Origin: a virus
Lineage: Duplodnaviria > Heunggongvirae > Uroviricota > Caudoviricetes
DNA length: 64,000 nucleotides
Strand: one strand, 5' to 3'
IMG/VR virus record: IMGVR_UViG_3300032167_000010
Below the pieces are notes generated by a model. That model was not told where the DNA came from and ran no database searches. It saw only the letters and a list, made by a program, of their open reading frames with translations. A program made the position numbers and the translations under genes. Positions 11,230 to 62,251 of this stretch are shown here, piece after piece. Each line of letters opens with the position of its first letter. Position 1 is the stretch's first letter.

Positions 11230-11231
11230 TT

Positions 11232-11441
11232 ATGATTAAGTGTGTATATTTGATTAAATGTGAACGAGATGCGTATGACCCTAATGATATCACCGCTACT
11301 TACACGGATATAGTAGGTTTTGTAGACGACGTTGAAGTTGCAAAAGCATACTGTCTTAAAAGAAATGATGGTTGGGAATACGGTCCTTACTCTTATGAAT
11401 GTGTGAGCGAACTTACTATAAAAGATATGGAGGAAAACTAA
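11232..11441 (+). CDS. hypothetical protein
   Basis: ORF track 11205..11441; ATG 7 nt after GAGGAGG. Confidence 0.5.
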   Translation: MIKCVYLIKCERDAYDPNDITATYTDIVGFVDDVEVAKAYCLKRNDGWEYGPYSYECVSELTIKDMEEN

Positions 11442-11854: not shown

Positions 11855-11930
11855 CCCTGTGGGATTAGTTTAAGTCTAGTTTTAGTATTTTATCATCACT
11901 AGATTAACTAGCCCCAGAGGGCTAAATAAA
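11855..11930 (+). other. long imperfect hairpin followed by variant late motif GCTAAATAAA
   Basis: ccctgtggg(11855-63) pairs with cccagaggg(11913-21), 49-nt enclosed region with inner ctag repeats; GCTAAATAAA 11921-11930. Confidence 0.35.
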
Positions 11931-11962
11931 GACTCAAATACATTATAAATAGGAGAACAAAT

Positions 11963-12190
11963 ATGAAAAAAGAATGCACTGGAAATCTTAAAGAGATTAT
12001 TTTAGCAATGATCGAAAACGAAACGGACTGTTGTGAAGTTACAAATACTGTCGGTGACATTTCTGTAACTGTAGACATTACTATTACTAAGATAGTAGAT
12101 AAAGGTGAAGTAGTCTACGATGCTTACGAAGATAAAGATGATCCTTACAGCGACGAGATTGATGACTACGAGCCTCGAATTTTACATTAA
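11963..12190 (+). CDS. hypothetical acidic protein (75 aa)
   Basis: ORF track; SD ATAGGAGAA. Confidence 0.5.
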   Translation: MKKECTGNLKEIILAMIENETDCCEVTNTVGDISVTVDITITKIVDKGEVVYDAYEDKDDPYSDEIDDYEPRILH

Positions 12191-12229
12191 AATTTTTTAA
12201 AAAATTTTTAAAAAAGTGGCTAAAAACAG

Positions 12230-12258
12230 TTTACAAATCCGGTAAAATATGTTATAAT
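12230..12258 (+). promoter_or_regulatory. early-class promoter
   Basis: TTTACA 12230-12235; TGtTATAAT ending 12258. Confidence 0.7.
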
Positions 12259-12293
12259 ATAATTACAAAGATTGATTAAGGAGACCGCTTGTT

Positions 12294-12485
12294 ATGAAAA
12301 AGTATGGTGTTTACAGAGTATTTATTGAAAACGAAAAAGTTGACAAATGGCTTTGGGGAACTTGGGAAGACCCTCACAGAGCAAATGAAGTCGGACTTGA
12401 AATTCAAGGAGACGGTTATTTTACAGAAGTAATTGAATTTGAAGACCAAGATCCACCTAAACATATCTTTTATCATGCAAACTAA
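12294..12485 (+). CDS. hypothetical protein
   Basis: ORF track; SD TAAGGAGA. Confidence 0.55.
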   Translation: MKKYGVYRVFIENEKVDKWLWGTWEDPHRANEVGLEIQGDGYFTEVIEFEDQDPPKHIFYHAN

Positions 12486-12504
12486 ATACTTGGAGGGTTA
12501 ATTT

Positions 12505-12720
12505 ATGGAAAACGAAAAATATCCTATTAAAGAAGAATGGCAAGAATACTACGATGTATTAGAAGGAATTAGAAGAACTGGCGTCGTGAATATGTGGGGA
12601 GCTTCTCCCTACTTAAAAGAGTTTTGCCCAGAGCTATCAGAAAAAGAATCTCAAGAAATTCTTTGCAACTGGATACATAACTACAACGAGTTAAACAAAA
12701 AGTTTGGCTGGCAAAAATAA
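12505..12720 (+). CDS. hypothetical protein
   Basis: ORF track; SD TGGAGGG. Confidence 0.55.
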   Translation: MENEKYPIKEEWQEYYDVLEGIRRTGVVNMWGASPYLKEFCPELSEKESQEILCNWIHNYNELNKKFGWQK

Positions 12721-12734
12721 AGGAGTACATACGT

Positions 12735-13139
12735 ATGAACTATAATGACACTATTAAAGATTTAACTGCTTGGCTCGAAGACTTAAAGAGATCTGCTAAG
12801 CTTGATGAACCTTTTACCATCTCTTGGTTTAAAGGAACTAAAAATTATCCATTTTCGATTATCGGAGGCTGGACGAAAGGCTTCTCTGATGACTATGCCG
12901 ACTTATTATGCGTTAGTGAATCAGAATCTGAGTATGCTATGTGTGTAAAGATCGTTATCAACGAAGGATCTTATGCGTATACTGACTACGAAGCTATGAA
13001 CATGCCGTATGATGAAGAATCCGGTAATGTTGATGACACTGAAGTCGCTCTTGAGTGGGATGACAACTCTGAAAGTCTCGCTACGTGGTTATTAACGGAG
13101 TGGGAAAGGATTATGAAAGAGCACGGAGAGGAAATCTAA
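12735..13139 (+). CDS. hypothetical protein (134 aa)
   Basis: ORF track; SD AAGGAGTA. Confidence 0.55.
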   Translation: MNYNDTIKDLTAWLEDLKRSAKLDEPFTISWFKGTKNYPFSIIGGWTKGFSDDYADLLCVSESESEYAMCVKIVINEGSYAYTDYEAMNMPYDEESGNVDDTEVALEWDDNSESLATWLLTEWERIMKEHGEEI

Positions 13140-13303
13140 TGTTGTATACCCTAGAATTAACTGAAGAAGAAATAGACTTCATCAAGGAAAGATGCTCACG
13201 TAAGGCGGCGAGATTAGAAGAATCTCATTTAGAAGATACTCCCTGCTATAAACTATCGTGGGACATCATGATCAAGATTATGAATATTAAAAAGGAGAAT
13301 TAG
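13139..13303 (+). CDS. hypothetical protein
   Basis: ORF track 13085..13303; ATG after GGAGAGG overlapping upstream stop. Confidence 0.45.
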   Translation: MLYTLELTEEEIDFIKERCSRKAARLEESHLEDTPCYKLSWDIMIKIMNIKKEN

Positions 13304-13304
13304 T

Positions 13305-13493
13305 ATGGATATATTTAGTCAACGCAGTAATGAACTTCAAAAAGCGTATGAAGAAGGAATAATCCACGGTGTAGAAACCGTGTGTGCTGAACTAACTGAA
13401 ACTTTTAAAGATATTCCAATGTGGGGATCTGTAGCAGTATATCATATCAATAAGTTGTTAGAAAACTTTAATAAGGAGAAAGACGCCAGATGA
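13305..13493 (+). CDS. hypothetical protein
   Basis: ORF track; SD AAAGGAGAA. Confidence 0.5.
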   Translation: MDIFSQRSNELQKAYEEGIIHGVETVCAELTETFKDIPMWGSVAVYHINKLLENFNKEKDAR

Positions 13494-13738
13494 GAAAACC
13501 TGAAATAATCGAAACTTCCGAAATTTCGCCATGTCCGTTTTGTGGTAATACCAAACTTAAGGTAGATAGTAAGCACAATGGTCATTGGTCTACTGTTGGA
13601 ACACACTCTGCTACTGTAAGATGCACTAAGTGTCATGCCAGAGGTCCGACTGCATCGTGTAAAGTATCCCCTGAACTTTATGGTGCAGATGATGCTACTA
13701 AACAGAAAGCAATAGAACTTTGGAATAAGAGGATTTAA
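13490..13738 (+). CDS. Lar-like zinc-finger protein (possible restriction alleviation)
   Basis: SPCPFCGN...CTKCHARG double Cys pairs typical of the Lar family; ATGA overlap with upstream gene. Confidence 0.45.
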   Translation: MRKPEIIETSEISPCPFCGNTKLKVDSKHNGHWSTVGTHSATVRCTKCHARGPTASCKVSPELYGADDATKQKAIELWNKRI

Positions 13739-13740
13739 CT

Positions 13741-14049
13741 ATGAAAAAAGAAATTAGTTTTTGGAAAACACAGTGGTTTAGTATGGTGGTAGCTTTCATT
13801 GCTATTGCTACGGGATTCGTTTATCTTATCGGAGCAGTATCAATAGTAGAACCAGTACTTTCATTATTCTGGTTTTTAATCTCCGAAGTTTGGGTCATTA
13901 CAGCTTTAGTGGACTATAATAACCTTCGTATTAAGAAGATACGAGATAGAATAGAAGTACTTGAGTACTGCGCAATTACAGACATAGTAGAAGAGTCTCC
14001 TAAACACTATGTGGTAAAGAGACGACTCGGTCCAGATAAGGAGGACTAA
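13741..14049 (+). CDS. small membrane protein (2 TM)
   Basis: ORF track; hydrophobic helices. Confidence 0.55.
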   Translation: MKKEISFWKTQWFSMVVAFIAIATGFVYLIGAVSIVEPVLSLFWFLISEVWVITALVDYNNLRIKKIRDRIEVLEYCAITDIVEESPKHYVVKRRLGPDKED

Positions 14050-14051
14050 CT

Positions 14052-14258
14052 ATGGGAAAAACACTTACTCAAAGAATCTATGAAACTCCACTAGATATTA
14101 AAGATGCTCTTTATAACAGTGGATACAAAGCCGGCAAATCAGCAATGATAAGTGAAATAAAAGATATTCTAGAAGACTGCTCTCAGACTAATGGTATAAT
14201 GTTCGTTAGAGCGCTTCAAGATCTTATAGAAAAATACGGAGAGAAAGATGCTAGATAA
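14052..14258 (+). CDS. hypothetical protein
   Basis: ORF track; SD AAGGAGGA. Confidence 0.5.
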   Translation: MGKTLTQRIYETPLDIKDALYNSGYKAGKSAMISEIKDILEDCSQTNGIMFVRALQDLIEKYGEKDAR

Positions 14259-14484
14259 AATTTATCTTTATGGTGCAAGGGATACCACAACAGGAAAGTT
14301 AGTATCAGATATTACTAATCCTAAAAGAAAGTATTGGGATAAGAAAGGTAATGCCGAGAAAGCAATCAGCGATTACAATCGAGGTTATGCCAACAGAAAA
14401 CTTCCGTATTCCGCTAACAAAGGCGAACATGGGATTATCGAATTAGTTATCTTTGAATTAGTAGAGGTGCCAAATGGAAAATAA
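14248..14484 (+). CDS. hypothetical protein
   Basis: ORF track; SD GGAGAGA. Confidence 0.5.
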   Translation: MLDKIYLYGARDTTTGKLVSDITNPKRKYWDKKGNAEKAISDYNRGYANRKLPYSANKGEHGIIELVIFELVEVPNGK

Positions 14485-14698
14485 AGAAATAAAGTATTGG
14501 ATTATTAAGAATCCTGACACTGGACTTTACTACAGAGGTAAGGGAGAAAACCGTTGGGGTAAGTACTACAATCAAGCGTCTATCTTTAGAATTAGAGGGC
14601 AAGTAGAAGAATCCTGTGAGTGGATTAATAGATGCCATCGTAATGGTGAGAAGGCTGAAATTGTAGAAATTAAAATTATAGAAATTAGTAATAATTAA
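14474..14698 (+). CDS. hypothetical protein
   Basis: ORF track; SD GAGGTG. Confidence 0.5.
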   Translation: MENKEIKYWIIKNPDTGLYYRGKGENRWGKYYNQASIFRIRGQVEESCEWINRCHRNGEKAEIVEIKIIEISNN

Positions 14699-14707
14699 CA
14701 AAAAGAA

Positions 14708-14722
14708 ATCGTATAATATAAT
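14708..14722 (+). promoter_or_regulatory. middle-class extended -10 promoter (cgTATAATATAAT)
   Basis: TATAAT 14712-14717 with no -35 at the expected spacing. Confidence 0.35.
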
Positions 14723-14745
14723 ATAAAACATTGGAGGATTTAATT

Positions 14746-14928
14746 ATGAGTATTTATGGTAAATATGAAACTTATAAAATTGTATACTATCCTAAAATTC
14801 AAAATAACGGTCAAATGGGAGTTGCTCTTGTAGAAGCTGGAGACTGGTCGCACGCAATGACTCTTTTCCAAGAACAATATGCCGGACAATTCCACACTGT
14901 AAAGAGCTGTGAAAAATTACTCGGCTAA
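14746..14928 (+). CDS. hypothetical protein
   Basis: ORF track 14731..14928; ATG after TGGAGGA. Confidence 0.5.
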   Translation: MSIYGKYETYKIVYYPKIQNNGQMGVALVEAGDWSHAMTLFQEQYAGQFHTVKSCEKLLG

Positions 14929-14957
14929 TTTAGAAAATTACAGCAAAATGTAAAAAG

Positions 14958-14976
14958 TTTTACTGTATAATATAAT
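14958..14976 (+). promoter_or_regulatory. middle-class extended -10 promoter (cTGTATAATATAAT)
   Basis: TGTATAAT 14964-14971. Confidence 0.45.
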
Positions 14977-14977
14977 A

Positions 14978-15128
14978 GAAAATGCCGCGGGGAATAACTA
15001 CTTTTGATATATCTCTTATCGTTTTCTTTTGTAAGTGTTCCTTCATTCTCCTCCTTAAACATAAACATTCTCCGTGGCTTCCACATAATTATTTAAAAAG
15101 ACCTGCTGTTTTAGTGGGTCTTTTTTCT
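14978..15128 (+). ncRNA. candidate ~150-nt small RNA (promoter + terminator unit without ORF)
   Basis: starts just downstream of TGTATAAT; ends at hairpin gacctgctgttttagtgggtc + T6 (15098-15128); internal ccttcattCTCCTCCttaaac anti-SD-like motif; 5' gccgcgg pairs with 3' ccgtggc. Confidence 0.4.
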
Positions 15129-15175
15129 ACCATTTATTGTATACTATAGTATTATGAAATTTGGAGGATTAACAA

Positions 15176-15364
15176 ATGAGTAAGTACACTACATATTATA
15201 ATAGTAGACAGACGATGTATAGAGATCTAGCGACTAATTGGATGAAGTACGTAGAAGAACATGGGATTACGAAACGTCAGATGCACGGGATGTCTATCTT
15301 CTTTACTAATATCGCTAGAAGATTCGGATTAATGAAAGACTTCCGAGACATCGGAGTTATTTAA
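15176..15364 (+). CDS. hypothetical protein
   Basis: ORF track; SD TGGAGGA. Confidence 0.5.
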   Translation: MSKYTTYYNSRQTMYRDLATNWMKYVEEHGITKRQMHGMSIFFTNIARRFGLMKDFRDIGVI

Positions 15365-15391
15365 TTTTTTTCAAGAACTTCTTAAAAACAG

Positions 15392-15420
15392 TTTACAAAT
15401 TCTACCAAATGTGATATAAT
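15392..15420 (+). promoter_or_regulatory. early-class promoter
   Basis: TTTACA 15392-15397; TGaTATAAT ending 15420. Confidence 0.7.
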
Positions 15421-15453
15421 ATAGGTAGAATAAAAGTTAAGGAGAAATTACCG

Positions 15454-15828
15454 ATGCTTGAAATTATTAAAGAACGTAAAGTAAGAATCGAAAAAGAATA
15501 CTACATTAACTTTGACTGTAAGGCTGACGATAGTTGCGGATTTATTTTCCCTGCTAATCCAGATGAAACTCTTGCGTTGGATAAGATGCCGGAAGAAGCG
15601 AGGGCTAACTATTATACCTGTGAAATGAACGTAGACTTATACAATCGTTGGTTTGAAGAACGCGAAGTAAAAGTAGTTGACTATGCTGTGGGAAAATGTA
15701 GATGTGGTGCCAAAGTCGAACTAACTGACGATGCTTGGATGGGAGCAGTACAGTGTGAGAAGTGTGGTAAGTGGTACAACATCTACGGACAAGAACTCAG
15801 AGACCCGAAGTATTGGGAGGAGGATTAA
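15454..15828 (+). CDS. Zn-ribbon protein
   Basis: ORF track; CRCG..17..CEKCG; SD AAGGAGAA. Confidence 0.55.
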   Translation: MLEIIKERKVRIEKEYYINFDCKADDSCGFIFPANPDETLALDKMPEEARANYYTCEMNVDLYNRWFEEREVKVVDYAVGKCRCGAKVELTDDAWMGAVQCEKCGKWYNIYGQELRDPKYWEED

Positions 15829-15829
15829 G

Positions 15830-16081
15830 ATGAATAGATACCTTATCTTTTCTATTACCATAGCCGAAGATGATCTAAAACATCTTCCTGAGAAATCATG
15901 GTACAATCATAACTACTATGAAATAACCGACTGGAACGACTATCTAATTCCCGAGAAGTGTAATATACTCTTTGAGGAGTGTGAAGATGATGGACCCGGT
16001 GCTTACTATCACTTGGGATACTTTGAGGGTGAACAATTTAAGTCTATGTTTACTTGGTATGAAGATGAAGCATTGATTTAA
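15830..16081 (+). CDS. hypothetical protein
   Basis: ORF track 15731..16081; ATG after GGGAGGAGGA. Confidence 0.5.
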   Translation: MNRYLIFSITIAEDDLKHLPEKSWYNHNYYEITDWNDYLIPEKCNILFEECEDDGPGAYYHLGYFEGEQFKSMFTWYEDEALI

Positions 16082-16120
16082 AAATAATTTAAAAATTTTT
16101 AAAAAACTACTCAAAAACAG

Positions 16121-16149
16121 TTTACAAAATTTGGTAAACATGATATAAT
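16121..16149 (+). promoter_or_regulatory. early-class promoter
   Basis: TTTACA 16121-16126; TGaTATAAT ending 16149. Confidence 0.7.
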
Positions 16150-16182
16150 ATATATAAAGAATAAATAAAAGAGGTACATATT

Positions 16183-16428
16183 ATGCAGTCAACAAGAATC
16201 GCAGATACAAATGAAATTAACAGAAGGTGCAGTGAAGTCTTTGATATGCAAGAAGGCGACTTCGTTTGGGGAATCTTCCTAACTGATGACGGTCAATTGT
16301 TAGTTGAAATGGAAGAGATTACAGAAGACGGTGATAGTTCTGGCATCTTTAACTTTGAACCTAATATGGAAGAAAGACCTGAGGCACTCGCTTACTTGAT
16401 GGGCGAGAGAAACGATTTTAACGATTAA
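16183..16428 (+). CDS. hypothetical acidic protein
   Basis: ORF track; SD AAGAGGTA. Confidence 0.55.
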   Translation: MQSTRIADTNEINRRCSEVFDMQEGDFVWGIFLTDDGQLLVEMEEITEDGDSSGIFNFEPNMEERPEALAYLMGERNDFND

Positions 16429-16468
16429 AAAATAATTAAAAAATTTTTGAAAAAGTAGTTAAAAACAG

Positions 16469-16497
16469 TTTACAAATCTCACCAAATATGTTATAAT
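16469..16497 (+). promoter_or_regulatory. early-class promoter
   Basis: TTTACA 16469-16474; TGtTATAAT ending 16497. Confidence 0.7.
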
Positions 16498-16533
16498 ATA
16501 TGTAATGAATAAAGTTAATAAGGAGAACATATT

Positions 16534-16752
16534 ATGTTTTATTACAAAGTAGAATCAAGTCATTGGCCAAACAATTTAGAATTCAAATCTAAAATTAAAA
16601 TGGAAGTAGGACAATGTTTCCGAATTACTTCTCACGATGGTTTCAAATCGTATCCAACTAGATTTAAGGTATTAAGTGTTTCAGATACTCCTGAATATAC
16701 TGGAACTGTTGTTGAAATTCTAGATGCCGATTTAACTGTTGAACAGTTCTAA
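16534..16752 (+). CDS. hypothetical protein
   Basis: ORF track; SD AAGGAGAA. Confidence 0.55.
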   Translation: MFYYKVESSHWPNNLEFKSKIKMEVGQCFRITSHDGFKSYPTRFKVLSVSDTPEYTGTVVEILDADLTVEQF

Positions 16753-16818
16753 CTTTAATCACACTTATCCAAACTCGTTTTGGTTAATCTAATTTTCATA
16801 TTTTCAACTTTCGGAAAA

Positions 16819-16852
16819 AGACTGATAGAGAAAATCTATTGGTCTTTTTTCT
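16819..16852 (+). terminator. rho-independent terminator
   Basis: agactgatag-N7-ctattggtct (two G-U wobbles) plus T6. Confidence 0.55.
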
Positions 16853-16860
16853 TTTACTTA

Positions 16861-16889
16861 TTTACAGACCTCCGGAACCGTGCTATAAT
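16861..16889 (+). promoter_or_regulatory. early-class promoter (divergent spacer sequence, same geometry)
   Basis: TTTACA 16861-16866; TGcTATAAT ending 16889; 17 bp spacer. Confidence 0.6.
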
Positions 16890-16916
16890 TATCTAGAAAG
16901 TTGGAGGTGAAAGTAG

Positions 16917-17105
16917 ATGATTAGTTATTTAAGACTCAAAGATATGTGTAGAACTGTCTGGTCTTTATTAACTGAAGAAGAGCGGGACTACTATCTAGAA
17001 AATGTCGGGATGATTAAATTTATAAAAGATGTTTCTAACTTACTTGGTTTGACACCAGAATATCTTTTAGTTGAACTATATGATGAGATACTAGAACAAT
17101 TGTAA
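16917..17105 (+). CDS. hypothetical protein
   Basis: ORF track; SD TTGGAGGTGA. Confidence 0.5.
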   Translation: MISYLRLKDMCRTVWSLLTEEERDYYLENVGMIKFIKDVSNLLGLTPEYLLVELYDEILEQL

Positions 17106-17109
17106 AAGA

Positions 17110-17142
17110 AGAGATCGGTCGTTTGTTGACCGGTCTTTTTAA
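17110..17142 (+). terminator. rho-independent terminator
   Basis: gatcggtc-gtttgtt-gaccggtc plus T-run. Confidence 0.6.
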
Positions 17143-17186
17143 TTAAAAAAAATTAAAAAATTTTCAAAAAAAGTTATTAAAAACAG

Positions 17187-34912: not shown

Positions 34913-35183
34913 AGACTGTACTTATAAGGGTTTCGAAGAACGAGATAAGAATGAAGCTTGGCCTTTTTGTATGTACAAAGATGAAGACTTAAGAAAGAAA
35001 GCTGCTGAATATTGGAATTATATACATCGATATTCTATTAGATATGGAGTGGAGCACAAGATAAAAGACTTTCCTCAAGAAAATGTTCCGTCTTGCCAAA
35101 TGGTTCAAGCAGCTTATAGTGAATTATATGGGACGACTTGTCCTAACTATAGAGGAGTAGAAAATGTTAAAGAAAAAGAATAA
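34896..35183 (+). CDS. Cys-rich protein
   Basis: ORF track 34857..35183; ATG after AGAGGAAAT. Confidence 0.45.
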   Translation: MDKRCKDCTYKGFEERDKNEAWPFCMYKDEDLRKKAAEYWNYIHRYSIRYGVEHKIKDFPQENVPSCQMVQAAYSELYGTTCPNYRGVENVKEKE

Positions 35184-35847
35184 AGAACTTTCTGTTGAAA
35201 GAATAACTGATAAAGAAGAAGTTAAGATGATGGCTAATGACATAGATTATGCATGTGTTAATTTGTCGTCAGAGCAGAGACTTGAGATTGCTAAAGTACT
35301 AGCTATTCTTGGTTATGGAAAATTAAATAAAGAAAAAACTGGTAATTGGGTTGTTTCAGAAAGAGGTTGTGTGATAACCTGTTCAAATTGTAAAGAACGT
35401 GTAGAGCTATATTGGCCTGATGGGACAGAGATAGGGCCGACATTACCTTATTGTCCATTCTGTGGGACTAAGATAGCCAGTTCTGCAGAAGTAAAAGATG
35501 TTGATAAGAAGCTGGGGAGAACAGTTATGAAAATTTGGTTAGATGATATTAGACCTGCACCAATAGATTATATTTGGCTTAAAAGTGTAGATGAGGCAAA
35601 AACATGGATACTTAACTGTGAAAGAAAGTATACAGAAAAGCATATAAAAGAAGATATTTTTGATACATCTCTCTTAGCTCGATATTGGGATATGAGTTGC
35701 GATACAAGTGACTATATAGAGCTTTTAAACTGGCTTGAAAGCACCAATAGAATAAACTTTACTTTTAAACTCCATGGCACAAACATAGTAGGTGTAGAAA
35801 ATATGCGCCGTATTATAAAAAGAAATGGTTGGACAGAGGTGAAATAA
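35164..35847 (+). CDS. Zn-ribbon protein (227 aa)
   Basis: ORF track; CSNCKE..CPFCG. Confidence 0.55.
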   Translation: MLKKKNKELSVERITDKEEVKMMANDIDYACVNLSSEQRLEIAKVLAILGYGKLNKEKTGNWVVSERGCVITCSNCKERVELYWPDGTEIGPTLPYCPFCGTKIASSAEVKDVDKKLGRTVMKIWLDDIRPAPIDYIWLKSVDEAKTWILNCERKYTEKHIKEDIFDTSLLARYWDMSCDTSDYIELLNWLESTNRINFTFKLHGTNIVGVENMRRIIKRNGWTEVK

Positions 35848-40488: not shown

Positions 40489-41370
40489 ATGATAATGACA
40501 AAAATTAGACCAACTTTTACGATGTTAGTAGGCATTCCAGGTTGTGGAAAAACCTCATTCGCAGAAGAACTTAAAAATGAAACTACAGTTCATTTATCTT
40601 CTGATGCCATTAGAAAAGAGCTTTGGGGCGATGAGAATTGCCAAGATGATCACAATAGAGTATTTAACTTAATGCATGAAAGAACTTTGTATGCTTTAAG
40701 AAATGGCTATGATGTAATCTATGATGCTACTAATATTACTAGAAAGAGCAGAAGAAGTATACTTGAGAAACTTCCTGCTTATGTAGATAAAAAATGTGTT
40801 ATTGTGTAGGCACCTATTTCATTTTGTTTAGCTAGGGATATGCACAGAGGTAGACATGTGGGTGAAGAAGTAATTATGTCAATGCTTAAAAGATTTGAAG
40901 CTCCTTTTTATGATGAAGGCTTTGATAGTATTGAAGTAAAATATTCTGGCTATTTTTTAAACAGTGATTATTTTACTGAGTGTAAACAGGCCTTAGAAAT
41001 TCCACATGATAACCCACATCATACTGCAGACGTAGCAGAACATTGTAGACTTTGTGGTGAAAATCTTTTAGACCAAGACTTGCCAAGAGTTGTAAAATCG
41101 GCAGGCTATGTTCACGATATTGGTAAACCTATTACAAAGACTTTTGTCAACAATAAAGGTGAAACTACTGAAATCGCACATTACTATGGGCATCAGGCAG
41201 CTGGTGCGTGGATTAGCTATGGATTTTTAGATGAAGATAATATTACACTTGCTTGGTTAATTTCCACACATATGGCGCCTTTTATTAATCAGAAATACTA
41301 TAATAGCTTAGACCCTTTATATAAGAATTGGATTGACGCTTTACATAAGGCTGACTTGGAAGCACACTAA
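40489..41370 (+). pseudogene. Pnk-like polynucleotide kinase domain fused to HD phosphohydrolase domain, interrupted by in-frame TAG at 40807-40809
   Basis: Walker A GIPGCGKTS; kinase motif CLARDMHRGRHVGEEVIMSM continues in the same frame right after the TAG; HD signatures HDNPHHTAD / HDIGKP downstream; both track ORFs 40489..40809 and 40840..41370 are in the same frame. Confidence 0.6.
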
Positions 41371-46772: not shown

Positions 46773-47126
46773 ATGACATTTATAGAAGAACTTAAACAAC
46801 TTTCTGAATCTGTGGCACTACGCCATAAGCTTGAAAGACAATTAAATGAAATTAAAGCTAAGATGAAAACTGCGGCGAGTAATGGTTATAGGGGTTTTAA
46901 AATTGACATTATTACGTTATTAGACTCAAGAGCTAGTATTATACGTTTACCAGATATTAATGCTGAAAATTATTACTGTATTTTTACTAATAATGAAACT
47001 TTTTACATTGATGCTATTAGCAGCTTCTTAGCTGAACTTGGATTTAATACTTCTGAAATTGCTTATGTTAAACGTAGCAATATTACGGACGGCTACAACT
47101 CAATGCTTATTACTATACTTTGGTAG
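46773..47126 (+). CDS. hypothetical protein
   Basis: ORF track 46725..47126; ATG after TAGGAGGAATG. Confidence 0.5.
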   Translation: MTFIEELKQLSESVALRHKLERQLNEIKAKMKTAASNGYRGFKIDIITLLDSRASIIRLPDINAENYYCIFTNNETFYIDAISSFLAELGFNTSEIAYVKRSNITDGYNSMLITILW

Positions 47127-47136
47127 GAGGATAACT

Positions 47137-47943
47137 ATGGAAAGAGACGCAGCTATTATGGAAAGAGTAAGACAGCATTTTGCTGAAGCTCTTAAATATT
47201 TTCCAGAAGATAGAATTGTTGGTGTATTTTTACAAGGAAGCCAAAATTACGGATTAGATTTACCAACGTCGGACGTAGATACTAAGCTAATTGTAGTACC
47301 GACTTTTCACAATATTGCTTTAAACAGTAAGCCTGTTAGCACCACGCACGTCAGAGCAAACGACGAACATATTGATTTTAAAGATATTCGTCTTTATATG
47401 GAAACTTTTAGGAAACAGAATTTAAACTTCCTTGAGATTTTATTTACGGACTACTATATCATCAATCCGCTTTACGAAGAACAATGGAATAGACTAGTAA
47501 AAGCTCGTGAAGAAATTGCGCGTATGAATCCTTATCGTGCGGTAAAATCTATGAAGGGTATTGCTCTAGAAAAATTTCATGCAATGGAGCATCCCTATCC
47601 AACGAAGCTTGACTTAATCGAAAAATATGGTTTTGATGGAAAACAGGTACACCACCTTATCAGAGTTGCCGACTATCTTACTAGATATATAAATGGTGAA
47701 TCTTACGCAGGCTGTTTAAAACCAAGTAAGCATTTAGTAGAACATATGTTAGAATATAAACGTCACGAAATCGACCTTGAAACGGCAAGAAAAGAAGCGA
47801 AATTAGTATTAGACTTTACAACTAAGATAGCCGATGATTTTTGCTCGACTCACAAAGATGAAGAAGACTCAATGATGCGAGAGCTGCTTCAAGACGTGTC
47901 ATATAATATTATGAAAATTGCAACATTAAAAGAACTTACATGA
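47137..47943 (+). CDS. Pol-beta-superfamily nucleotidyltransferase (RlaP-like)
   Basis: GSQNYGLDLPTSDVDTKLIVVP (GS..YG....SD.D) plus downstream NLNFLEILFT; ATG after GGTAGGAGGAT. Confidence 0.6.
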   Translation: MERDAAIMERVRQHFAEALKYFPEDRIVGVFLQGSQNYGLDLPTSDVDTKLIVVPTFHNIALNSKPVSTTHVRANDEHIDFKDIRLYMETFRKQNLNFLEILFTDYYIINPLYEEQWNRLVKAREEIARMNPYRAVKSMKGIALEKFHAMEHPYPTKLDLIEKYGFDGKQVHHLIRVADYLTRYINGESYAGCLKPSKHLVEHMLEYKRHEIDLETARKEAKLVLDFTTKIADDFCSTHKDEEDSMMRELLQDVSYNIMKIATLKELT

Positions 47944-56110: not shown

Positions 56111-57787
56111 ATGAAAATGAATGATTTTAAAATTAAACGTGGCCTATCATCAGTAGTATTTATCGAGCCGGGAGTGATTAATCCACAACTAGTTATTGAA
56201 GAAGGCTGTTGGTATCTTTGTACTGACACCGCAGAACTTTATTTAGGTGTTCAGATAGACACTGGCTTAACATTAAAGAAAATTAATGGTCATAATGCAG
56301 TAGATATCCCAACTCAATCACCTGACGGTGGAGATGGTGAAGCTCCTAGAGGTTTAATCGGTGCTTATATAGATGAAGCTGGAGAGCTTTGTGTAATTTT
56401 TTCAGATAATACTGAAGAATCGCTTGGTGTGGTTGTTGGCAAAAACGGTATTGACGGTAAAGATGGTACCAACGGTATCGATGGCCGCGATGGTATTACA
56501 CCACATATCGGTGATAATGGAAATTGGTACCTTGGAGAACTAAACACCGGAGTTTCTGCAGCCGGTACTGAGGGCCCACAAGGACCTCAAGGTGAAGCTG
56601 GTCCCCAAGGTAGTCAAGGTGAAAAAGGCGAAAAAGGTGACGCTTTTACATACGAAGATTTTACAGAAGAGCAATTAGCTGCTCTTAAAGGTGAACAAGG
56701 TCCCACAGGTAAAGACGGTTATACTCCCGTTAAAGGTGTTGACTATTTTGATGGAGCTGCGGGTAAAGACGGTAAAGACGGTTTAACTACCGCTGTAAAG
56801 GTTAACGGTACTGTTTATGAACACGACAACGGCGTTATTGAATTACCTAACTTTATTACTGAACATCAATCTTTAGCAGACTATGCCAAAAAGACAGACT
56901 TATTTAGTAAGTCTTATAATGATTTAACTGATAAGCCTACTATTCCTTCTATTGAAGGCCTAGCGACAGAAGATTATATAAATAATGCTATTGCAAATAT
57001 CAAACATCCTGCTAGTCCGACAAAAGTAAGTGATTTAGAAAATGACGCAGGCTATATTACTTCTGCGGATATTCCTGAAACTGACTTAAGTAATTATTAC
57101 ACAAAGACAGAAGTTGATAATAAAATACTTGACATAAAAGCTAATGATGTACCTTTTACAAGCGCTAAATTTGTTGCAAAAGCGTTTGGCGGATTTGCCG
57201 TCGGTGATGATTTAAACGGCTTAACTGTTGCTCAATTATTTGCTAAATTATTAGAGCTAACTGATACTAAACCTGGTGAAAATCCTGACGTCCCTGAGGT
57301 TCCAACTGAGCCAGACGGCGTAATAGATGAGATTATAACCGACAAGCTTCCTATGTATTCTGTAAATGCTGAGGGTGAAGTTATTGAGATATCTTATGAT
57401 GATGTAATTACTTATACAGAAGCTACCGCAAGTGAACAACCTACAGAGTCTGGTTTTTATCAAATAACAAATGAAACTGGCGAAGTTATTGAGTCTGGCT
57501 ACCAAGAATTAACTGCAGAAAACCCAAATACTATTTATATTATTGCATTACCTAAAGGCGTTGATTTTAATACAATGGTTACTACTCAAACTTATGACAT
57601 GCTAGAAGGTAAATGGAAAGATGATTCTCTCGAAATGTCTAGAGACTATGACACAATAAGCGGTATTTGTGAAGCACTTTCTATTGATACTTCACACATT
57701 GACCTTAAAAAATATATTCTTTGGGCAGATTTAACTTCAGGACAAGGACCTAGTGGTAAGATACATAGATTTATTATAAAGGAATAA
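56111..57787 (+). CDS. collagen-like repeat tail-fibre protein
   Basis: ~25 G-X-Y triplets (GKNGIDGKDGTNGIDGRDG...GPQGPQGEAGPQGSQGEKGEKG); SD TAAGGAGTT; alternative ATG 56117. Confidence 0.7.
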   Translation: MKMNDFKIKRGLSSVVFIEPGVINPQLVIEEGCWYLCTDTAELYLGVQIDTGLTLKKINGHNAVDIPTQSPDGGDGEAPRGLIGAYIDEAGELCVIFSDNTEESLGVVVGKNGIDGKDGTNGIDGRDGITPHIGDNGNWYLGELNTGVSAAGTEGPQGPQGEAGPQGSQGEKGEKGDAFTYEDFTEEQLAALKGEQGPTGKDGYTPVKGVDYFDGAAGKDGKDGLTTAVKVNGTVYEHDNGVIELPNFITEHQSLADYAKKTDLFSKSYNDLTDKPTIPSIEGLATEDYINNAIANIKHPASPTKVSDLENDAGYITSADIPETDLSNYYTKTEVDNKILDIKANDVPFTSAKFVAKAFGGFAVGDDLNGLTVAQLFAKLLELTDTKPGENPDVPEVPTEPDGVIDEIITDKLPMYSVNAEGEVIEISYDDVITYTEATASEQPTESGFYQITNETGEVIESGYQELTAENPNTIYIIALPKGVDFNTMVTTQTYDMLEGKWKDDSLEMSRDYDTISGICEALSIDTSHIDLKKYILWADLTSGQGPSGKIHRFIIKE

Positions 57788-57799
57788 GGAGATTTACAT

Positions 57800-58573
57800 A
57801 TGGCTTTAGAAATATCTAATCAATATCTATATACAGGTAGAGGCCCTTTTGACGCGAAGTCTATTGTAAAAACTTATGCTGACTTACTATCAGAAGAAAC
57901 TTGGAAGTCTGACAAGGGCAATATTATCGCTTATAACGGTATGGTTGTTGCGGTATGGCTTAATAAAGAAGACCCTACTAAAAACGGCATTTATTATCTG
58001 TATGATAGTGCGGTTTTATCTAATCAGACCGCGGCTTATATAGTGCCAGCACCGGATGTTACGAAAGAAGAAAACTGGCACAAATTAGCAGAAATATCTG
58101 ACCTAGAAGCTTTTACAAAAGTACTTTCTAACAGGTTAACCGAGCTCGAAGGAGTTGAGCTGTTCCAAAAAATCGAACAGGAAACTGAGTTGCCTAATAA
58201 CTTTGACTCAGACGAATTTAACCCTAATATTACATATTATAGAGTTCGTCAGCTTGGTGCTGATACTGATGCTTATATACTTTATACTTATATATATGAT
58301 AAAGACTCTAATCGTTATTTACGTAAAGCTAACGCTAATGACGCGAGAGCAAGTGTTTCCGACGTAGAGGTTAATAACGAAGGCGGTATCACAGTATACT
58401 ATTCTGATGGAACCTCAAAAACTGTCTGCGTAGGAAGCTCTAATGTTGACCTTACTAACTACGCAACTAAAGATTTCGTAGAAGAGTACGTAGACAATTC
58501 ATTTACTAGTTTTACTGAGTCACTTAAAACGACTATATTATTTGGTGGTGACTCTGACCCAAATGATGACTAA
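57800..58573 (+). CDS. hypothetical structural protein
   Basis: ORF track; SD TAAGGAGATTTA. Confidence 0.5.
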   Translation: MALEISNQYLYTGRGPFDAKSIVKTYADLLSEETWKSDKGNIIAYNGMVVAVWLNKEDPTKNGIYYLYDSAVLSNQTAAYIVPAPDVTKEENWHKLAEISDLEAFTKVLSNRLTELEGVELFQKIEQETELPNNFDSDEFNPNITYYRVRQLGADTDAYILYTYIYDKDSNRYLRKANANDARASVSDVEVNNEGGITVYYSDGTSKTVCVGSSNVDLTNYATKDFVEEYVDNSFTSFTESLKTTILFGGDSDPNDD

Positions 58574-58593
58574 AACAAAATTAATTAGAATTA

Positions 58594-58603
58594 GCTAAAT
58601 TAA
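58594..58603 (+). promoter_or_regulatory. late-type promoter motif (copy 8, GCTAAATTAA)
   Basis: 61 nt upstream of ATG 58664. Confidence 0.4.
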
Positions 58604-58663
58604 TATGTGTGTTTAAAAACATGCATAACTAAAAATAAAAATTATAATTAAAGGAGATACTTT

Positions 58664-59860
58664 ATGGCAGAACAAACTATTAATACTATTATAGTGTTAA
58701 GAAATGACTCAACCACCGAGTGGCAAAAATCTAGCTACAAGTTGAGAAGCGGCGAAGTTGGCGTTGGCTATATGACTCGTACAGTAGACGGCGAAAACAA
58801 AGTAGTGCCTATCATCAAAGTTGGTGACGGTACTAGCACCTGGAGTCAGCTTCCTCAGGCTGAAGGTGTGTTTGAACAACCTGTTACTTTAACACAGAAC
58901 TTCGGTTACTACAATGACGTACCTGCAGGTAGCTTCAAGACTTACTCAAGCACTGCTGGTATGACTACTTCAGAATTCCTTCTTAGCGCGCTTAAGAAGA
59001 CTGTTGAACCTACTATTACTCAACCAAATGCATCTTTTAGCTCTGTAAGCGCAACGGTGCAAAATAATGACCCTGAAATGGGCGCGTATATCACAGCTCT
59101 TAACTGGGATGGCTCAACATCAAACGGTAAGTACAACGTCGGTACAGCAGCTGACCAAGCTACTGGTATTAGTGCTAGCAACTTCAAGTGGTCAGTTACT
59201 ACGAATAAAACAATTGATGGCAACCCTCCTGCTGCATCAGACCAGGTAGATGGTTCCTTCGCATTAGCAGACAATTCAGCTAACGAAGGTGGTGTAGATA
59301 ACCGTATTCAAATTACGTCTGAATCTAGCACAGAATATGCTAAGATTTATGCAACAGTTACTTTAGATTTGACAAATACTACTGTTAATGCTCCTAAGAA
59401 TAACTTAAACGAAGTTACTTCTGGTACAATAACTGGTTTTGATAAAAATGGCACTAAAACAAAAGACCTTACTGGTTCCGTTAAAGTAACTGGATATAGA
59501 AAACCTTTCTGGGGCTGGAAGAGCTCTACCGATGCTTTAGCGGATCCTACAGCCATTACTTCAGTACAAGTAAGAGCGCTTGGCAATAGTGGTACTTCTA
59601 CTGCTGGACTTCCTACTTCTCTAAAGGTGCCTGCTGGTACGAAGCAAGTTTTCTTTGCAGCAAAAGCTGGTGCCAAATCTTCTTTAACTGTTAAAAACGT
59701 AACTAAAGAGCCTGCAACCAGTGTTGCTTGTACAAAGAAAGCAAGACTTCTTACAGTTGATGGCGCTAACGGCTATACCGCAGTTGACTATGACGTATGG
59801 TATATCAATTTGGACGCACCTTTCACTGGTGAAACTAGTCTTGAGCTTACTTGGGCTTAA
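58664..59860 (+). CDS. tail-fibre-like protein
   Basis: N-terminal RNDSTTEWQ..L..GE.GV.....K.GDG.S.WS.LPQ motif common to phage tail fibres; SD AAAGGAGATAC. Confidence 0.55.
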   Translation: MAEQTINTIIVLRNDSTTEWQKSSYKLRSGEVGVGYMTRTVDGENKVVPIIKVGDGTSTWSQLPQAEGVFEQPVTLTQNFGYYNDVPAGSFKTYSSTAGMTTSEFLLSALKKTVEPTITQPNASFSSVSATVQNNDPEMGAYITALNWDGSTSNGKYNVGTAADQATGISASNFKWSVTTNKTIDGNPPAASDQVDGSFALADNSANEGGVDNRIQITSESSTEYAKIYATVTLDLTNTTVNAPKNNLNEVTSGTITGFDKNGTKTKDLTGSVKVTGYRKPFWGWKSSTDALADPTAITSVQVRALGNSGTSTAGLPTSLKVPAGTKQVFFAAKAGAKSSLTVKNVTKEPATSVACTKKARLLTVDGANGYTAVDYDVWYINLDAPFTGETSLELTWA

Positions 59861-59878
59861 TAAGGAGGGCAATATATA

Positions 59879-62251
59879 ATGGCAAAATCATATCTTGATA
59901 TTCAAAATTCAGCCTATAAAGTAGGCAATATTATGGACTGGACCAATGCCCTTACTCGTTTAAGCGGTGTTCCTGTCGATATTACAGAAGTTTATGACTC
60001 ATTTGATAAAGCAGTTGTGTATGCAGCAACAAACCCTGTTGCTTATGAAGGTCAGTTAATCACTGTTACTGAAAATGGTGATACTACTGTTTATGTAATT
60101 ACACCTTCAGAACAAGGCACTCACAAAGTTATTGAAAAAGTAGATAACGTTGATACAGAAGTAGAATATTCTATTTATATTAAGAAAGTAGGCACAGTTC
60201 CTACCGGTGATGACGCATCTATCACAGTAACTGAAGACGGAAGAGTAGCTCTTAAAGGCTTTGCTAATGCAGAAGATGCTTATTTACCTCGCGTAAAAGT
60301 AACTAATGGTGTTAGATCTATCGAGTGGGTACCTATTAACCAAATCGTTGAAGGTGACACAAATACCGTAACAAAAGTTGAAGTTGCTGAAGGCTCTGCA
60401 CTTAGTATTGAGAAAGACGAAGATGTTAATACTGACACTGTTACATATACTCTTGACGTAGCAATTCCTGAATATGCTGTTAAGAAGACTACTGGTACTG
60501 GCGTAGTAAATTATGAACTTACTAAAGACGGTATAGCTGTTGCAGAGCAAATCGTGGTACCTAATGCTTATAATGATTCGGCTTTAGTTGAGAGAGTTGA
60601 AGACGTTGAGGCTTTAGCTGCTGGAAATAAAGACGTTTTAGATAATGCTGTAGAAGATATAAGCGATCACGAAGACCGCTTAGAGGCTATCGAGGCATTC
60701 TTTGATGGTGCGGCTGCAGATGAAGGCGAAGGTGAAAGTCTTAAAAATGCTCTTGATACTTTAGTTGAAATCCAAACTTTTATTAATACTGAAGGTGAAA
60801 CTGCTAAAGATTTACTTGATGCTATTAACGAAAATACCGAGGATATCGCTGCTTTACAAAAGACCTTAGCTACTAACGGCGACTTTGAAAAACGCGTAGC
60901 TGAGGTTGAAGCTAAGGCATCTAATAATACTAGTGACATTGAGGCACTTCAAGAACTTACTACTACTAGTGGCGCAATCTATACAGCAATTAACGCTGCT
61001 AAAGATCAAGCAGATAAGGGTGTAGCTGATGCTGCTACGGCTCAAGCTGCTGCAAATGCTGCTGATGCTAAAGCTGTTAATGCTCAAAAAGAAGTTGATG
61101 CTCTTGAAACTGAAGTTGCTGGTATTAAAACTACAGCTGAAGATGCCAATGCTTTAGCTATTGCAAATGATGGTCGTTTAGATACTGCAGAAGCTAATAT
61201 TGACGCTTTAGAAGCTATTGTTAAAACCGGTGCTAATACTAATGCTGCTCTTAGAGAAGCTATTACAGAACTCCAAGGTATTGTTAAAACTGGAGATGAT
61301 GCAAATAGCGCACTTCGTACTGACCTAACAAATTTGGGTAAAGATTTAAGCGACTTAGCTACAGCTATTAATGATGAAAATAGCGGTCTCGCTAAAACTA
61401 ACGAAATTGCTGATAATGCAGCATCTTTAGCTGCTGAAAACGCCGGCCGTTTAGATACTGCAGAAGCTGATATTGATGTGTTACAAGAAATCGTAGATTC
61501 TGGTGATGGTAAAACAATTAGAAACGATATTACTGCACTTCAACAATTAACTGGTGATGGTTCTAAAGGTAATAACGCTTTATATACAGAAATCTCTAGA
61601 GTTGCTGGATTGGTGGATAATAAGACAGCTGGCCTTAGTGCAACAAAAGCTATCGCAGACAATGCCGCTAGTGAAGCATCTGATGCACATAGCCGTTTAG
61701 ATGATATTGATACTATCTTAACTGGGTACGAGGATATTAACGTTAAAGATGATGTAAACGACGCTAGAAACGCTGCTTATACTGCTGATGGAAAGGCAGT
61801 TGCTGCACAAAACGCTGCAGATGCTGCTCAAGGTACGGCTAATGCAGTTAAAGCTGCTGTAGAAGATGCAGCGACAGGTCTCGCTAAGACGAAAGAAGTT
61901 GCTGACGCCGCTGCCGCAAAAGCTGCTGAAAACGCTGGTCGTTTAGATACAGCTGCAGATGCTATTGAGGATTTAGAAAGTATTGTTTTAGATCCTGATA
62001 GCGTTGGTAATGAAAAATTACGTGCTGACTTAGACGCTATTACAGGCAGTGTTAATAACGCATCAACAGGTCTTGCTAAAACTAAAGAAATTGCTGATAA
62101 TGCAGCGGCTGCTGCAAGTGCAAATAGTGATCGTCTTGATGCTATTGAAGGTGATTGTGTAAAAATTGGCACAGATAACAAACTTTACCACGGTAAAGAC
62201 GGTGATGTTATTATTTTCTATTGCGGTTCTGCAACTGAAAATATTGATTAA
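59879..62251 (+). CDS. long Ala-rich coiled-coil fibre protein with internal repeats (790 aa)
   Basis: ORF track; SD AAGGAGGGCAAT; repeated GLAKTKEIADNAA..AENAGRLDTAE units. Confidence 0.65.
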   Translation: MAKSYLDIQNSAYKVGNIMDWTNALTRLSGVPVDITEVYDSFDKAVVYAATNPVAYEGQLITVTENGDTTVYVITPSEQGTHKVIEKVDNVDTEVEYSIYIKKVGTVPTGDDASITVTEDGRVALKGFANAEDAYLPRVKVTNGVRSIEWVPINQIVEGDTNTVTKVEVAEGSALSIEKDEDVNTDTVTYTLDVAIPEYAVKKTTGTGVVNYELTKDGIAVAEQIVVPNAYNDSALVERVEDVEALAAGNKDVLDNAVEDISDHEDRLEAIEAFFDGAAADEGEGESLKNALDTLVEIQTFINTEGETAKDLLDAINENTEDIAALQKTLATNGDFEKRVAEVEAKASNNTSDIEALQELTTTSGAIYTAINAAKDQADKGVADAATAQAAANAADAKAVNAQKEVDALETEVAGIKTTAEDANALAIANDGRLDTAEANIDALEAIVKTGANTNAALREAITELQGIVKTGDDANSALRTDLTNLGKDLSDLATAINDENSGLAKTNEIADNAASLAAENAGRLDTAEADIDVLQEIVDSGDGKTIRNDITALQQLTGDGSKGNNALYTEISRVAGLVDNKTAGLSATKAIADNAASEASDAHSRLDDIDTILTGYEDINVKDDVNDARNAAYTADGKAVAAQNAADAAQGTANAVKAAVEDAATGLAKTKEVADAAAAKAAENAGRLDTAADAIEDLESIVLDPDSVGNEKLRADLDAITGSVNNASTGLAKTKEIADNAAAAASANSDRLDAIEGDCVKIGTDNKLYHGKDGDVIIFYCGSATENID

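What the first reader, a model, noticed from the sequence alone, without database searches (positions are those of the whole stretch)
40489..41370. In-frame amber codon inside a Pnk-like kinase / HD-phosphohydrolase fusion gene
Seen in sequence: ORFs 40489..40809 and 40840..41370 are in the same frame, separated only by TAG at 40807-40809. The kinase signature continues across the stop (…KCVIV * APISFCLARDMHRGRHVGEEVIMSMLKRFEAP), matching the T4-Pnk-type kinase motif (…L.RN.KRG…VP..V…M). Upstream is the Walker A GIPGCGKTS; downstream an HD domain (HDNPHHTAD…HDIGKP). Established knowledge: 5'-kinase/3'-phosphatase end-healing enzymes (T4 Pnk, bacterial Pnkp) repair tRNA or RNA cleaved by host anticodon nucleases, working with a ligase. 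Here the phosphatase module would be an HD domain rather than HAD or a metallophosphoesterase. Inference: either (a) a recent nonsense mutation (pseudogene), (b) a sequencing error, or (c) expression by amber readthrough/suppression. TAG does terminate other genes here (2101, 28914, 46129), so global recoding is unlikely.
Basis: partly seen in the sequence, partly recalled or inferred. Interest (0 to 1): 0.7.

Follow-up and report, generated by a model that had tools for sequence, protein, structure and literature searches.

The report
Nonsense-mutated phage RNA-repair kinase gene
A jumbo phage's RNA end-healing gene (polynucleotide kinase fused to an HD phosphoesterase) has a real single-base change that turned a family-conserved tryptophan codon into a stop, so this is most likely an ordinary, recently broken gene and not a case of unusual decoding.

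Summary
ORFs 40489..40809 and 40840..41370 are one gene cut by TAG at 40807-40809. The Pfam AAA_33 kinase profile runs straight across the stop, and an HD domain follows.

More than 1,300 homologs exist as uninterrupted proteins of about 293 aa, the best 81% identical. In 117 of 117 full-length homologs the stop column is Trp, and in 5 of 5 relatives with DNA the codon is TGG. TAG is therefore a single G-to-A change.

It is not a sequencing error. Both fragments occur unchanged on 18 or more contigs from JGI, ENA and Logan assemblies. One of these differs from the window at two poly-G tracts yet shares the TAG.

It is not recoding. The other 13 TAG stops on the + strand sit at normal gene ends, 11 of them with the next gene's start within 11 nt. 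Tail-fibre genes and a 2,813-aa ORF are intact in the standard code. No tRNA lies in the 82 kb I could read, no RNA structure follows the stop, and 0 of 40 relatives found at DNA level carry an in-frame stop.

The 106-aa product lacks the kinase lid arginines and should be inactive. A 170-aa HD protein might restart at GTG 40858.

Verdict: a young pseudogene or truncation, of low interest. Suppression by a tRNA in the unread ~63% of the genome is not excluded.

The parts
40489..40806 (+). Codons 1-106 of the kinase-HD gene, the only part translated before the stop. It holds the P-loop GIPGCGKTS (residues 15-23), the general-base Asp39 with Arg42, Thr81, and the beta-strand ending at residue 106.
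   Evidence: ORF list. Pfam AAA_33 covers profile positions 2-90 only. Alignment to CthPnk with residue roles from PMC3902929. The exact 106-aa protein occurs on 18 contigs.
40807..40809 (+). In-frame TAG replacing the family-conserved Trp107 codon (TGG to TAG, a G-to-A change at 40808).
   Evidence: W in 117 of 117 full-length homologs. Codon is TGG in 5 of 5 relatives' DNA. TAG is present in the JGI and ENA contigs. In the AF2 model of the ortholog, W107 is the last residue of strand 100-107.
40810..41370 (+). Remainder of the ancestral reading frame (codons 108-293 plus TAA). It holds the kinase lid helices with Arg116, Arg120 and Arg122, a linker, and the HD domain (Pfam HD residues 178-268, about 41020-41292). 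There are no further stops or frameshifts.
   Evidence: Translation. Pfam HD at 26.7-28.2 bits against a cut-off of 22. Lid roles. The query departs from columns conserved at 90% or more at only 2 sites, which is the family median.
40847..40860 (+). Possible internal restart: SD-like GAGG (40847-40850), a 7-nt spacer, then GTG 40858. This would give a 170-aa protein carrying the whole HD domain. ATG 40840 is the alternative start (176 aa) but has no well-spaced SD.
   Evidence: Read directly from the sequence. Gene callers in ENA and Logan assemblies chose the GTG (P0123) and others chose the ATG (P0049). Expression is inferred, not shown.

Best explanation
This is one ancestral gene for a bifunctional RNA/DNA end-healing enzyme, with an N-terminal Pnk-type 5'-OH polynucleotide kinase and a C-terminal HD phosphoesterase. 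A single G-to-A transition changed the family-conserved Trp107 codon TGG to TAG.

The mutation is real and is present in every available assembly of this roughly 222-kb jumbo phage. Translation normally stops at codon 107. The 106-aa product keeps the P-loop and the Asp/Arg acceptor-site residues. It lacks the lid (Arg116, Arg120, Arg122) that binds the NTP, so kinase activity is lost.

The rest of the frame is still pristine, so the event is evolutionarily recent. The HD half may still be made at a low level by re-initiation at GTG 40858 or ATG 40840.

Shown: the mutation, its fixation in the assemblies, intact orthologs, and normal TAG usage. Inferred: loss of kinase activity, the possible HD restart product, and dispensability of the gene in the current host.
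For: - **One gene.** The AAA_33 profile spans the stop. There are 1,357 homologs, the top ones about 293 aa and uninterrupted.
- **Ancestral codon.** The stop column is W in 117 of 117 and the codon is TGG in 5 of 5 relatives.
- **No recurrence.** Among 40 relatives located by tblastn on DNA, which is independent of gene calling, none has an in-frame stop.
- **Intact ortholog in place.** The syntenic relative L008 (YopX ... kinase-HD ... 140 aa ... 373 aa) has the gene intact.
- **Not an error.** The exact 106-aa and 176/170-aa fragments occur on 18 or more contigs from JGI, ENA and Logan. The ENA contig differs from the window by two poly-G indels yet shares the TAG.
- **TAG is an ordinary terminator here.** The other 13 TAG stops on the + strand lie at gene ends. 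At 11 of them the next gene starts within 11 nt, mostly behind a GGAG-type SD.
- **Late genes are standard code.** The tail-fibre ORFs of 558, 398 and 790 aa and a 2,813-aa ORF are intact.
- **Lost residues matter.** The lid residues after the stop correspond to CthPnk Arg116, Arg120 and Arg123, which bind the NTP.
- **No decay.** The query departs from conserved columns at only 2 sites, the family median.
Against: - The downstream 186 codons carry no second lesion. That is also what continued selection on a read-through product would produce.
- All known genomes of this phage carry the TAG and no intact allele is in the database. The truncation is therefore tolerated, or compensated.
- Only about 82 kb of a roughly 222-kb genome could be scanned for a suppressor tRNA.
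- No expression data exist.
Confidence: 0.8

Rival explanations
1. The TAG is read through. A phage- or host-encoded amber suppressor tRNA, or basal near-cognate readthrough, yields some full-length 293-aa kinase-HD enzyme, so the stop acts as an expression throttle and not as a knockout.
For: - The downstream frame is perfectly intact, and the allele is fixed in 18 or more assemblies.
- Jumbo phages of this family do carry tRNA genes. L013 has Met, Leu(CAA) and Gln(TTG) next to its kinase-HD gene.
- In more distant relatives the column holds M, A, F, I or V, so a non-Trp insertion might be tolerated.
- About 63% of the genome is unread.
Against: - No tRNA was found in the window or its flanks, 82 kb in all, by ARAGORN or Rfam.
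- TAG ends about 10% of + strand genes at ordinary junctions.
- No stable structure lies downstream (z=0.22), and the context UAG-G with no CARYYA-like motif is read directly from the sequence.
- The stop is not conserved in any of about 157 relatives.
- This is the only interrupted conserved gene seen in 64 kb.
Confidence: 0.09
2. The gene now works as two pieces. The 106-aa N fragment and a restarted 170/176-aa C fragment are both made, and either reassemble into an active kinase-HD or leave a stand-alone functional HD phosphoesterase that is the selected product.
For: - GAGG lies 7 nt upstream of GTG 40858, and gene callers accept that start.
- The HD domain is complete downstream of it.
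- The AF2 model of the ortholog has distinct kinase and HD halves.
Against: - A restart at 40858 drops Arg116, Arg120 and Arg122, and a restart at 40840 drops Arg116. An active split kinase is therefore unlikely.
- None of about 157 relatives is split.
- The SD-like element lies in coding sequence and may be there by chance.
- No expression data exist.
Confidence: 0.07
3. The TAG is a sequencing or assembly artefact and the true genome has TGG.
For: Metagenome assemblies do contain errors. The window differs from an ENA contig at two poly-G tracts.
Against: - The same fragments are present on 18 or more contigs from three independent sources.
- The change is a substitution, not a homopolymer-length error.
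- No intact allele of this strain exists among 15 billion proteins. The closest intact proteins are the partial P0122, which shares the 90%-identity cluster of the C fragment, and the full-length P0001 at 81%.
Confidence: 0.02
4. The phage uses an alternative genetic code in which TAG is a sense codon, genome-wide or in a gene subset.
For: Two relatives lie on contigs binned into 'uncultured Bacteroidales' MAGs. From my own knowledge, TAG-recoded phages are known among phages of Bacteroidales. This was not checked here.
Against: - There are 14 TAG-terminated + strand genes, 12 of them followed by the next gene's start within 11 nt or less.
- The Dam methylase ends at TAG after a full-length Pfam match.
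- Structural genes are intact in code 11.
- Reassigning TAG gives no special gain in ORF length.
Confidence: 0.01

Closest known systems
Kinase-HD proteins of Tsamsa-like and other large Bacillus phages (PJN02, Tsamsa, Izhevsk, PK-3), annotated 'polynucleotide kinase', 'AAA family ATPase' or 'HD-domain containing protein'
   Same: They have the same architecture, an N-terminal AAA_33 kinase and a C-terminal HD domain. A single tblastn segment covers residues 10-262 at 33-35% identity. In PJN02 the gene sits among RNA ligase, endonuclease, nucleotidyltransferase and DNA ligase genes.
   Different: Those genes are uninterrupted. They are only about 35% identical to this one and belong to siphoviruses of Bacillus, not to this uncultured jumbo phage.
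Runella slithyformis HD-Pnk (Munir & Shuman 2017, as described in PMC6097658)
   Same: It is a bifunctional end-healing enzyme built from an HD 2',3'-phosphoesterase and a P-loop 5'-OH polynucleotide kinase, and its gene is clustered with a ligase. Close relatives of the window gene likewise sit directly downstream of an Rnl1-type RNA ligase.
   Different: The domain order is reversed, with HD at the N terminus in Runella and at the C terminus here. No direct sequence comparison was made. The window copy is cut by a stop, and no ligase is adjacent.
Clostridium thermocellum Pnkp kinase domain (CthPnk) and T4 Pnk
   Different: The phosphatase partner is a metallophosphoesterase in CthPnkp and a HAD/DxD domain in T4 Pnk, whereas here it is an HD domain. 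CthPnkp also carries a ligase domain.
Stop-codon-recoded phages (TAG or TGA reassigned with phage suppressor tRNAs)
   Same: Both show an in-frame TAG in a phage gene.
   Different: Recoded phages have many in-frame stops, mainly in late genes, and avoid that codon as a terminator. Here there is a single TAG at a Trp position and TAG is used normally as a stop.

Membership tests
Pnk-type P-loop 5'-OH polynucleotide kinase (T4 Pnk / CthPnk clade, Pfam AAA_33) | P-loop GxxGxGK[ST] | tested here: met
   GIPGCGKTS at residues 15-23, aligned to the CthPnk P-loop GSSGSGKST.
Pnk-type P-loop 5'-OH polynucleotide kinase (T4 Pnk / CthPnk clade, Pfam AAA_33) | Acceptor-site general-base Asp with an Arg three residues later, and the phosphate-binding Thr (CthPnk Asp38, Arg41, Thr80) | tested here: met
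   SSD39..R42 and DAT81N align to CthPnk ISSD..R and DATN. The roles come from PMC3902929. D39, R42 and T81 are invariant in the family.
Pnk-type P-loop 5'-OH polynucleotide kinase (T4 Pnk / CthPnk clade, Pfam AAA_33) | Lid helices with NTP-binding arginines (CthPnk Arg116, Arg120, Arg123) present in the translated product | tested here: not met
   R116, R120 and R122 are encoded, but downstream of the TAG at codon 107. The ancestral gene meets the feature, whereas the 106-aa product does not.
Pnk-type P-loop 5'-OH polynucleotide kinase (T4 Pnk / CthPnk clade, Pfam AAA_33) | Fold closest to the polynucleotide kinases | tested here: met
Pnk-type P-loop 5'-OH polynucleotide kinase (T4 Pnk / CthPnk clade, Pfam AAA_33) | 5'-OH polynucleotide kinase activity | not testable with these tools
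   This needs a biochemical assay of the repaired (TAG to TGG) protein.
HD superfamily metal-dependent phosphohydrolase | H...HD...H...D metal-ligand motifs and a Pfam HD match above the gathering score | tested here: met
HD-Pnk type bifunctional end-healing enzyme (Runella) | N-terminal HD domain and C-terminal Pnk domain in one polypeptide | tested here: not met
   Both domains are present but in the opposite order, with the kinase at 11-139 and HD at 178-268. The Runella order is described.
HD-Pnk type bifunctional end-healing enzyme (Runella) | Genetic clustering with a polynucleotide ligase | tested here: inconclusive
   An Rnl1-like ligase lies directly upstream in relatives L006, L007 and L009/L010. 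It is absent next to the gene in the window, L008 and L011, and there is no Rnl1 homolog in 82 kb of this phage. An ATP-dependent DNA ligase lies 34 kb away.
Stop-codon-recoded phage / programmed amber readthrough | Multiple in-frame TAGs in conserved genes, and avoidance of TAG as a terminator | tested here: not met
   There is one interrupted gene only. 14 of 139 + strand genes end in TAG, the other 13 of them at normal gene ends. Late genes are intact.
Stop-codon-recoded phage / programmed amber readthrough | Suppressor tRNA(CUA) in the genome | tested here: inconclusive
   There are no tRNAs in the window, L002 or L003, 82 kb in all. The other roughly 140 kb could not be fetched.
Stop-codon-recoded phage / programmed amber readthrough | Stop conserved in relatives, or a stimulatory downstream RNA structure | tested here: not met
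   No stop was found in 117 protein homologs or 40 DNA loci. The fold z-score is 0.22.

The most novel reading that the evidence does not exclude
The amber codon is kept on purpose. The unread part of this roughly 222-kb phage genome would encode an amber suppressor tRNA, possibly derived from tRNA-Trp. Full-length kinase-HD would then be made only when that tRNA is expressed. This would be a one-gene translational switch on an RNA-repair enzyme, in a phage that otherwise uses TAG as a normal stop.
Probability: 0.05. Interest if true: 0.55.

Novelty: new member of a known kind. Interest (0 to 1): 0.15.

Why it matters
As it stands, it matters little. It is a clean example of a fresh nonsense mutation in an accessory phage gene. 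For annotation, 40489..41370 should be called one disrupted kinase-HD gene, not two genes.

It also shows that this jumbo phage persists in several metagenomes without a working end-healing kinase. That hints that its current host poses no RNA-cleaving threat requiring this enzyme.

The wider family is more interesting than the stop. It has more than 1,300 members, a kinase-then-HD order, and often sits directly downstream of an Rnl1-type RNA ligase. It looks like a common phage RNA-repair cassette. I found no biochemical study of this domain order in the papers searched; only the reversed Runella HD-Pnk turned up.

Tried and rejected
- **Global TAG recoding: rejected.** This rests on stop usage, junction anatomy and intact late genes.
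- **Programmed readthrough structure: none found.** The downstream fold has z=0.22.
- **Suppressor tRNA: none in 82 kb.** ARAGORN and Rfam found no tRNA in the window or the 10-kb flanks. I could not walk further, because contig look-ups accept only window proteins or proteins returned by a homolog search.
- **Using the repeated promoter motif to tile the genome: dropped.** All 16 copies lie in one roughly 21-kb early region.
- **Exact-pattern scans for TAG or TGG alleles: no matches.** IMG/VR, the JGI metagenome collection and the GTDB genomes all returned nothing. Population polymorphism therefore could not be assessed that way.
- **Near-identical phage records in GenBank: none.** Megablast of 20 kb found nothing, and blastn of the gene found only a 97-nt patch in Bacillus phages.
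- **Selection after the mutation: not testable.** All assemblies are 99.99-100% identical, so there is no divergence to measure. I used deviation from conserved columns instead.
- **RNA ligase partner: none found in 82 kb.** tblastn with three relatives' Rnl1-like proteins and two PJN02 ligases found nothing.
- **PDB sequence search with the HD fragment alone: uninformative**.

Full report
**Observation**

The window sequence shows ORF 40489..40809 (106 aa) ending in TAG at 40807-40809. ORF 40840..41370 (176 aa) is in the same frame. Translating 40489-41370 gives 294 codons with one internal stop and the terminal TAA.

With X at the stop, Pfam AAA_33 matches profile positions 2-143 of 143 over residues 11-139. 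The kinase domain therefore runs straight through the stop (E=9e-23), whereas the N fragment alone covers only profile positions 2-90. PF01966 (HD) matches residues 178-268 above its gathering score.

**What the gene is**

A search of 5.8 billion protein clusters found 1,357 homologs. The top ones are uninterrupted proteins of 284-312 aa with both domains, the best 81% identical.

An AlphaFold2 model of that intact ortholog (P0001) is confident, with pLDDT 93.9 and pTM 0.91.
- **Catalytic residues.** Sequence alignment to CthPnk, read against the published structure paper PMC3902929, places the P-loop Lys21/Thr22, the general base Asp39, Arg42 and Thr81 before the stop. The lid residues Arg116, Arg120 and Arg122 correspond to CthPnk Arg116, Arg120 and Arg123, which stack on the nucleobase and hold the gamma phosphate. 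They come after the stop.

The same kinase-then-HD architecture occurs in Tsamsa-like Bacillus phages, where it is annotated 'polynucleotide kinase'. In phage PJN02 it lies among two RNA ligases, an endonuclease, a nucleotidyltransferase and a DNA ligase.

In three closer relatives (L006, L007, L009/L010) an Rnl1-type RNA ligase lies immediately upstream of the intact gene. PF09511 hits the L007 copy, and the three ligases are 60-69% identical to each other.

The family is therefore best read as the end-healing partner of an RNA ligase. It resembles Runella HD-Pnk, described in PMC6097658, but with the domain order reversed.

**What the stop is**

- In an alignment of 117 full-length homologs the stop column is Trp in 117 of 117.
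- In the DNA of five relatives the codon is TGG. TAG is thus a single G-to-A transition at 40808.
- In the model, Trp107 is the last residue of the central beta-strand 100-107, just before the lid helices 110-119 and 126-134.
- Apart from the stop, the query departs from columns conserved at 90% or more at only one other position (V238A). Its total of two deviations equals the family median, so there is no sign of decay.

**Not an artefact**

The exact 106-aa fragment is on 18 contigs. The exact C fragment is on 18 contigs as the 176-aa call and on 6 as the 170-aa call. These come from JGI, ENA and Logan, and the longest contig is 444,602 bp.

A JGI contig (L001) and an ENA contig (L002-L004) are 99.99-100% identical to the window and carry the TAG. 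The ENA contig differs from the window at two poly-G tracts. The assemblies are therefore independent, yet they share the stop.

No intact allele of this strain exists in the database. The nearest intact sequences are the partial P0122 and the full-length P0001.

Contig lengths of 221,766, 222,944 and 444,602 bp suggest a genome of about 222 kb, with the longest contig being a dimer. This is an inference.

**Not recoding or programmed readthrough**

- **Stop usage.** On the + strand TAA, TAG and TGA end 112, 14 and 13 genes.
- **Junction anatomy.** The other 13 TAG stops lie at gene ends. At 11 of them the next gene's start follows within 11 nt, mostly behind a GGAG-type Shine-Dalgarno. The TAG at 40807 has neither.
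- **Intact conserved genes.** The Dam methylase ends at TAG after a full-length Pfam match. The tail-fibre ORFs and a 2,813-aa ORF are uninterrupted in the standard code.
- **No tRNA.** ARAGORN and Rfam find none in the window or the two 10-kb flanks, 82 kb in total.
- **No RNA structure.** The RNA downstream of the stop folds no better than shuffles (z=0.22).
- **No recurrence.** Forty relatives located at DNA level by tblastn, so pseudogenes would not be missed, have no in-frame stop. The syntenic relative L008 has the gene intact.

**Consequences (inferred)**

The 106-aa product lacks the lid and should be kinase-dead.

GTG 40858 is preceded by GAGG at a 7-nt spacing, and some gene callers use it (P0123). 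A 170-aa HD protein could therefore arise by re-initiation, but this is untested.

No Rnl1 homolog is present in the 82 kb read. The repair cassette may already be incomplete in this phage, which would fit relaxed need for the kinase.

**Limits**

About 63% of the genome could not be retrieved. Contig look-ups accept only window proteins or proteins returned by a homolog search, and exact-pattern scans of IMG/VR, JGI contigs and GTDB found nothing. A suppressor tRNA elsewhere in the genome therefore cannot be excluded, and there are no expression data.

**Verdict**

This is a real, recent TGG-to-TAG nonsense mutation in a member of a widespread phage kinase-HD end-healing family. The finding is ordinary and of low interest.

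The residual novel reading is deliberate suppression-dependent expression. I put it at about 5%.

Noticed in passing
window 2216-17182 and L002 5900-9016 (16 sites, all + strand): There are sixteen copies of a strong extended sigma-70-type promoter, AAAACAGTTTACAA, then 13-14 nt, then TGnTATAAT. Most are followed by GGAGG and a start codon. They are confined to a region of about 21 kb (window -3761 to 17182), which looks like the early-gene region.
   Followed up: partly
window 9700 and 31579: The window and ENA contig ERZ27248446 k141_1405776 differ in poly-G length at two sites. G6 against G5 at 9700 splits a 131-aa ORF (ENA) into a 65-aa ORF in the window. G4 against G3 at 31579 gives a 383-aa Band_7/SPFH protein in the window and a 338-aa one in ENA. 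These are either assembly errors or real phase-like variation.
   Followed up: partly
window 35164-35847, 47038-47943, 5022-6338: Other nucleic-acid-repair-flavoured genes lie in the window. They are a protein with a cREC_REC 'cyclic-phosphate processing receiver' domain (PF20274), a phrog_388 nucleotidyltransferase and an ATP-dependent DNA ligase. Relative L006 also carries cREC_REC and a Thg1-like gene near its kinase-HD.
   Followed up: no
L007 5892-7046; L006 6696-7985; L009 193-1335: An Rnl1-type RNA ligase lies directly upstream of the intact kinase-HD gene in three related phages, forming a two-gene heal-and-seal cassette. It is absent at the syntenic site in the window.
   Followed up: yes
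window ~62368 onward (L003 12490-20931): A 2,813-aa ORF with LRR_5 repeats starts near the end of the window, downstream of collagen-like tail-fibre genes (56111-62251). The 398-aa protein at 58664-59860 has a weak Mtd_N (tropism determinant) match.
   Followed up: no
L013 4081-4156, 4429-4513, 7913-7987: A 48%-identical relative lies on a 175,925-bp contig binned as 'uncultured Bacteroidales'. It has tRNA-Met, tRNA-Leu(CAA) and tRNA-Gln(TTG) genes flanking its kinase-HD gene.
   Followed up: no
contig lengths reported for P0049, P0121 and P0123: The longest contig carrying the gene is 444,602 bp, almost exactly twice the 221,766-222,944-bp contigs. This suggests a concatemer or dimer assembly of a genome of about 222 kb.
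   Followed up: no
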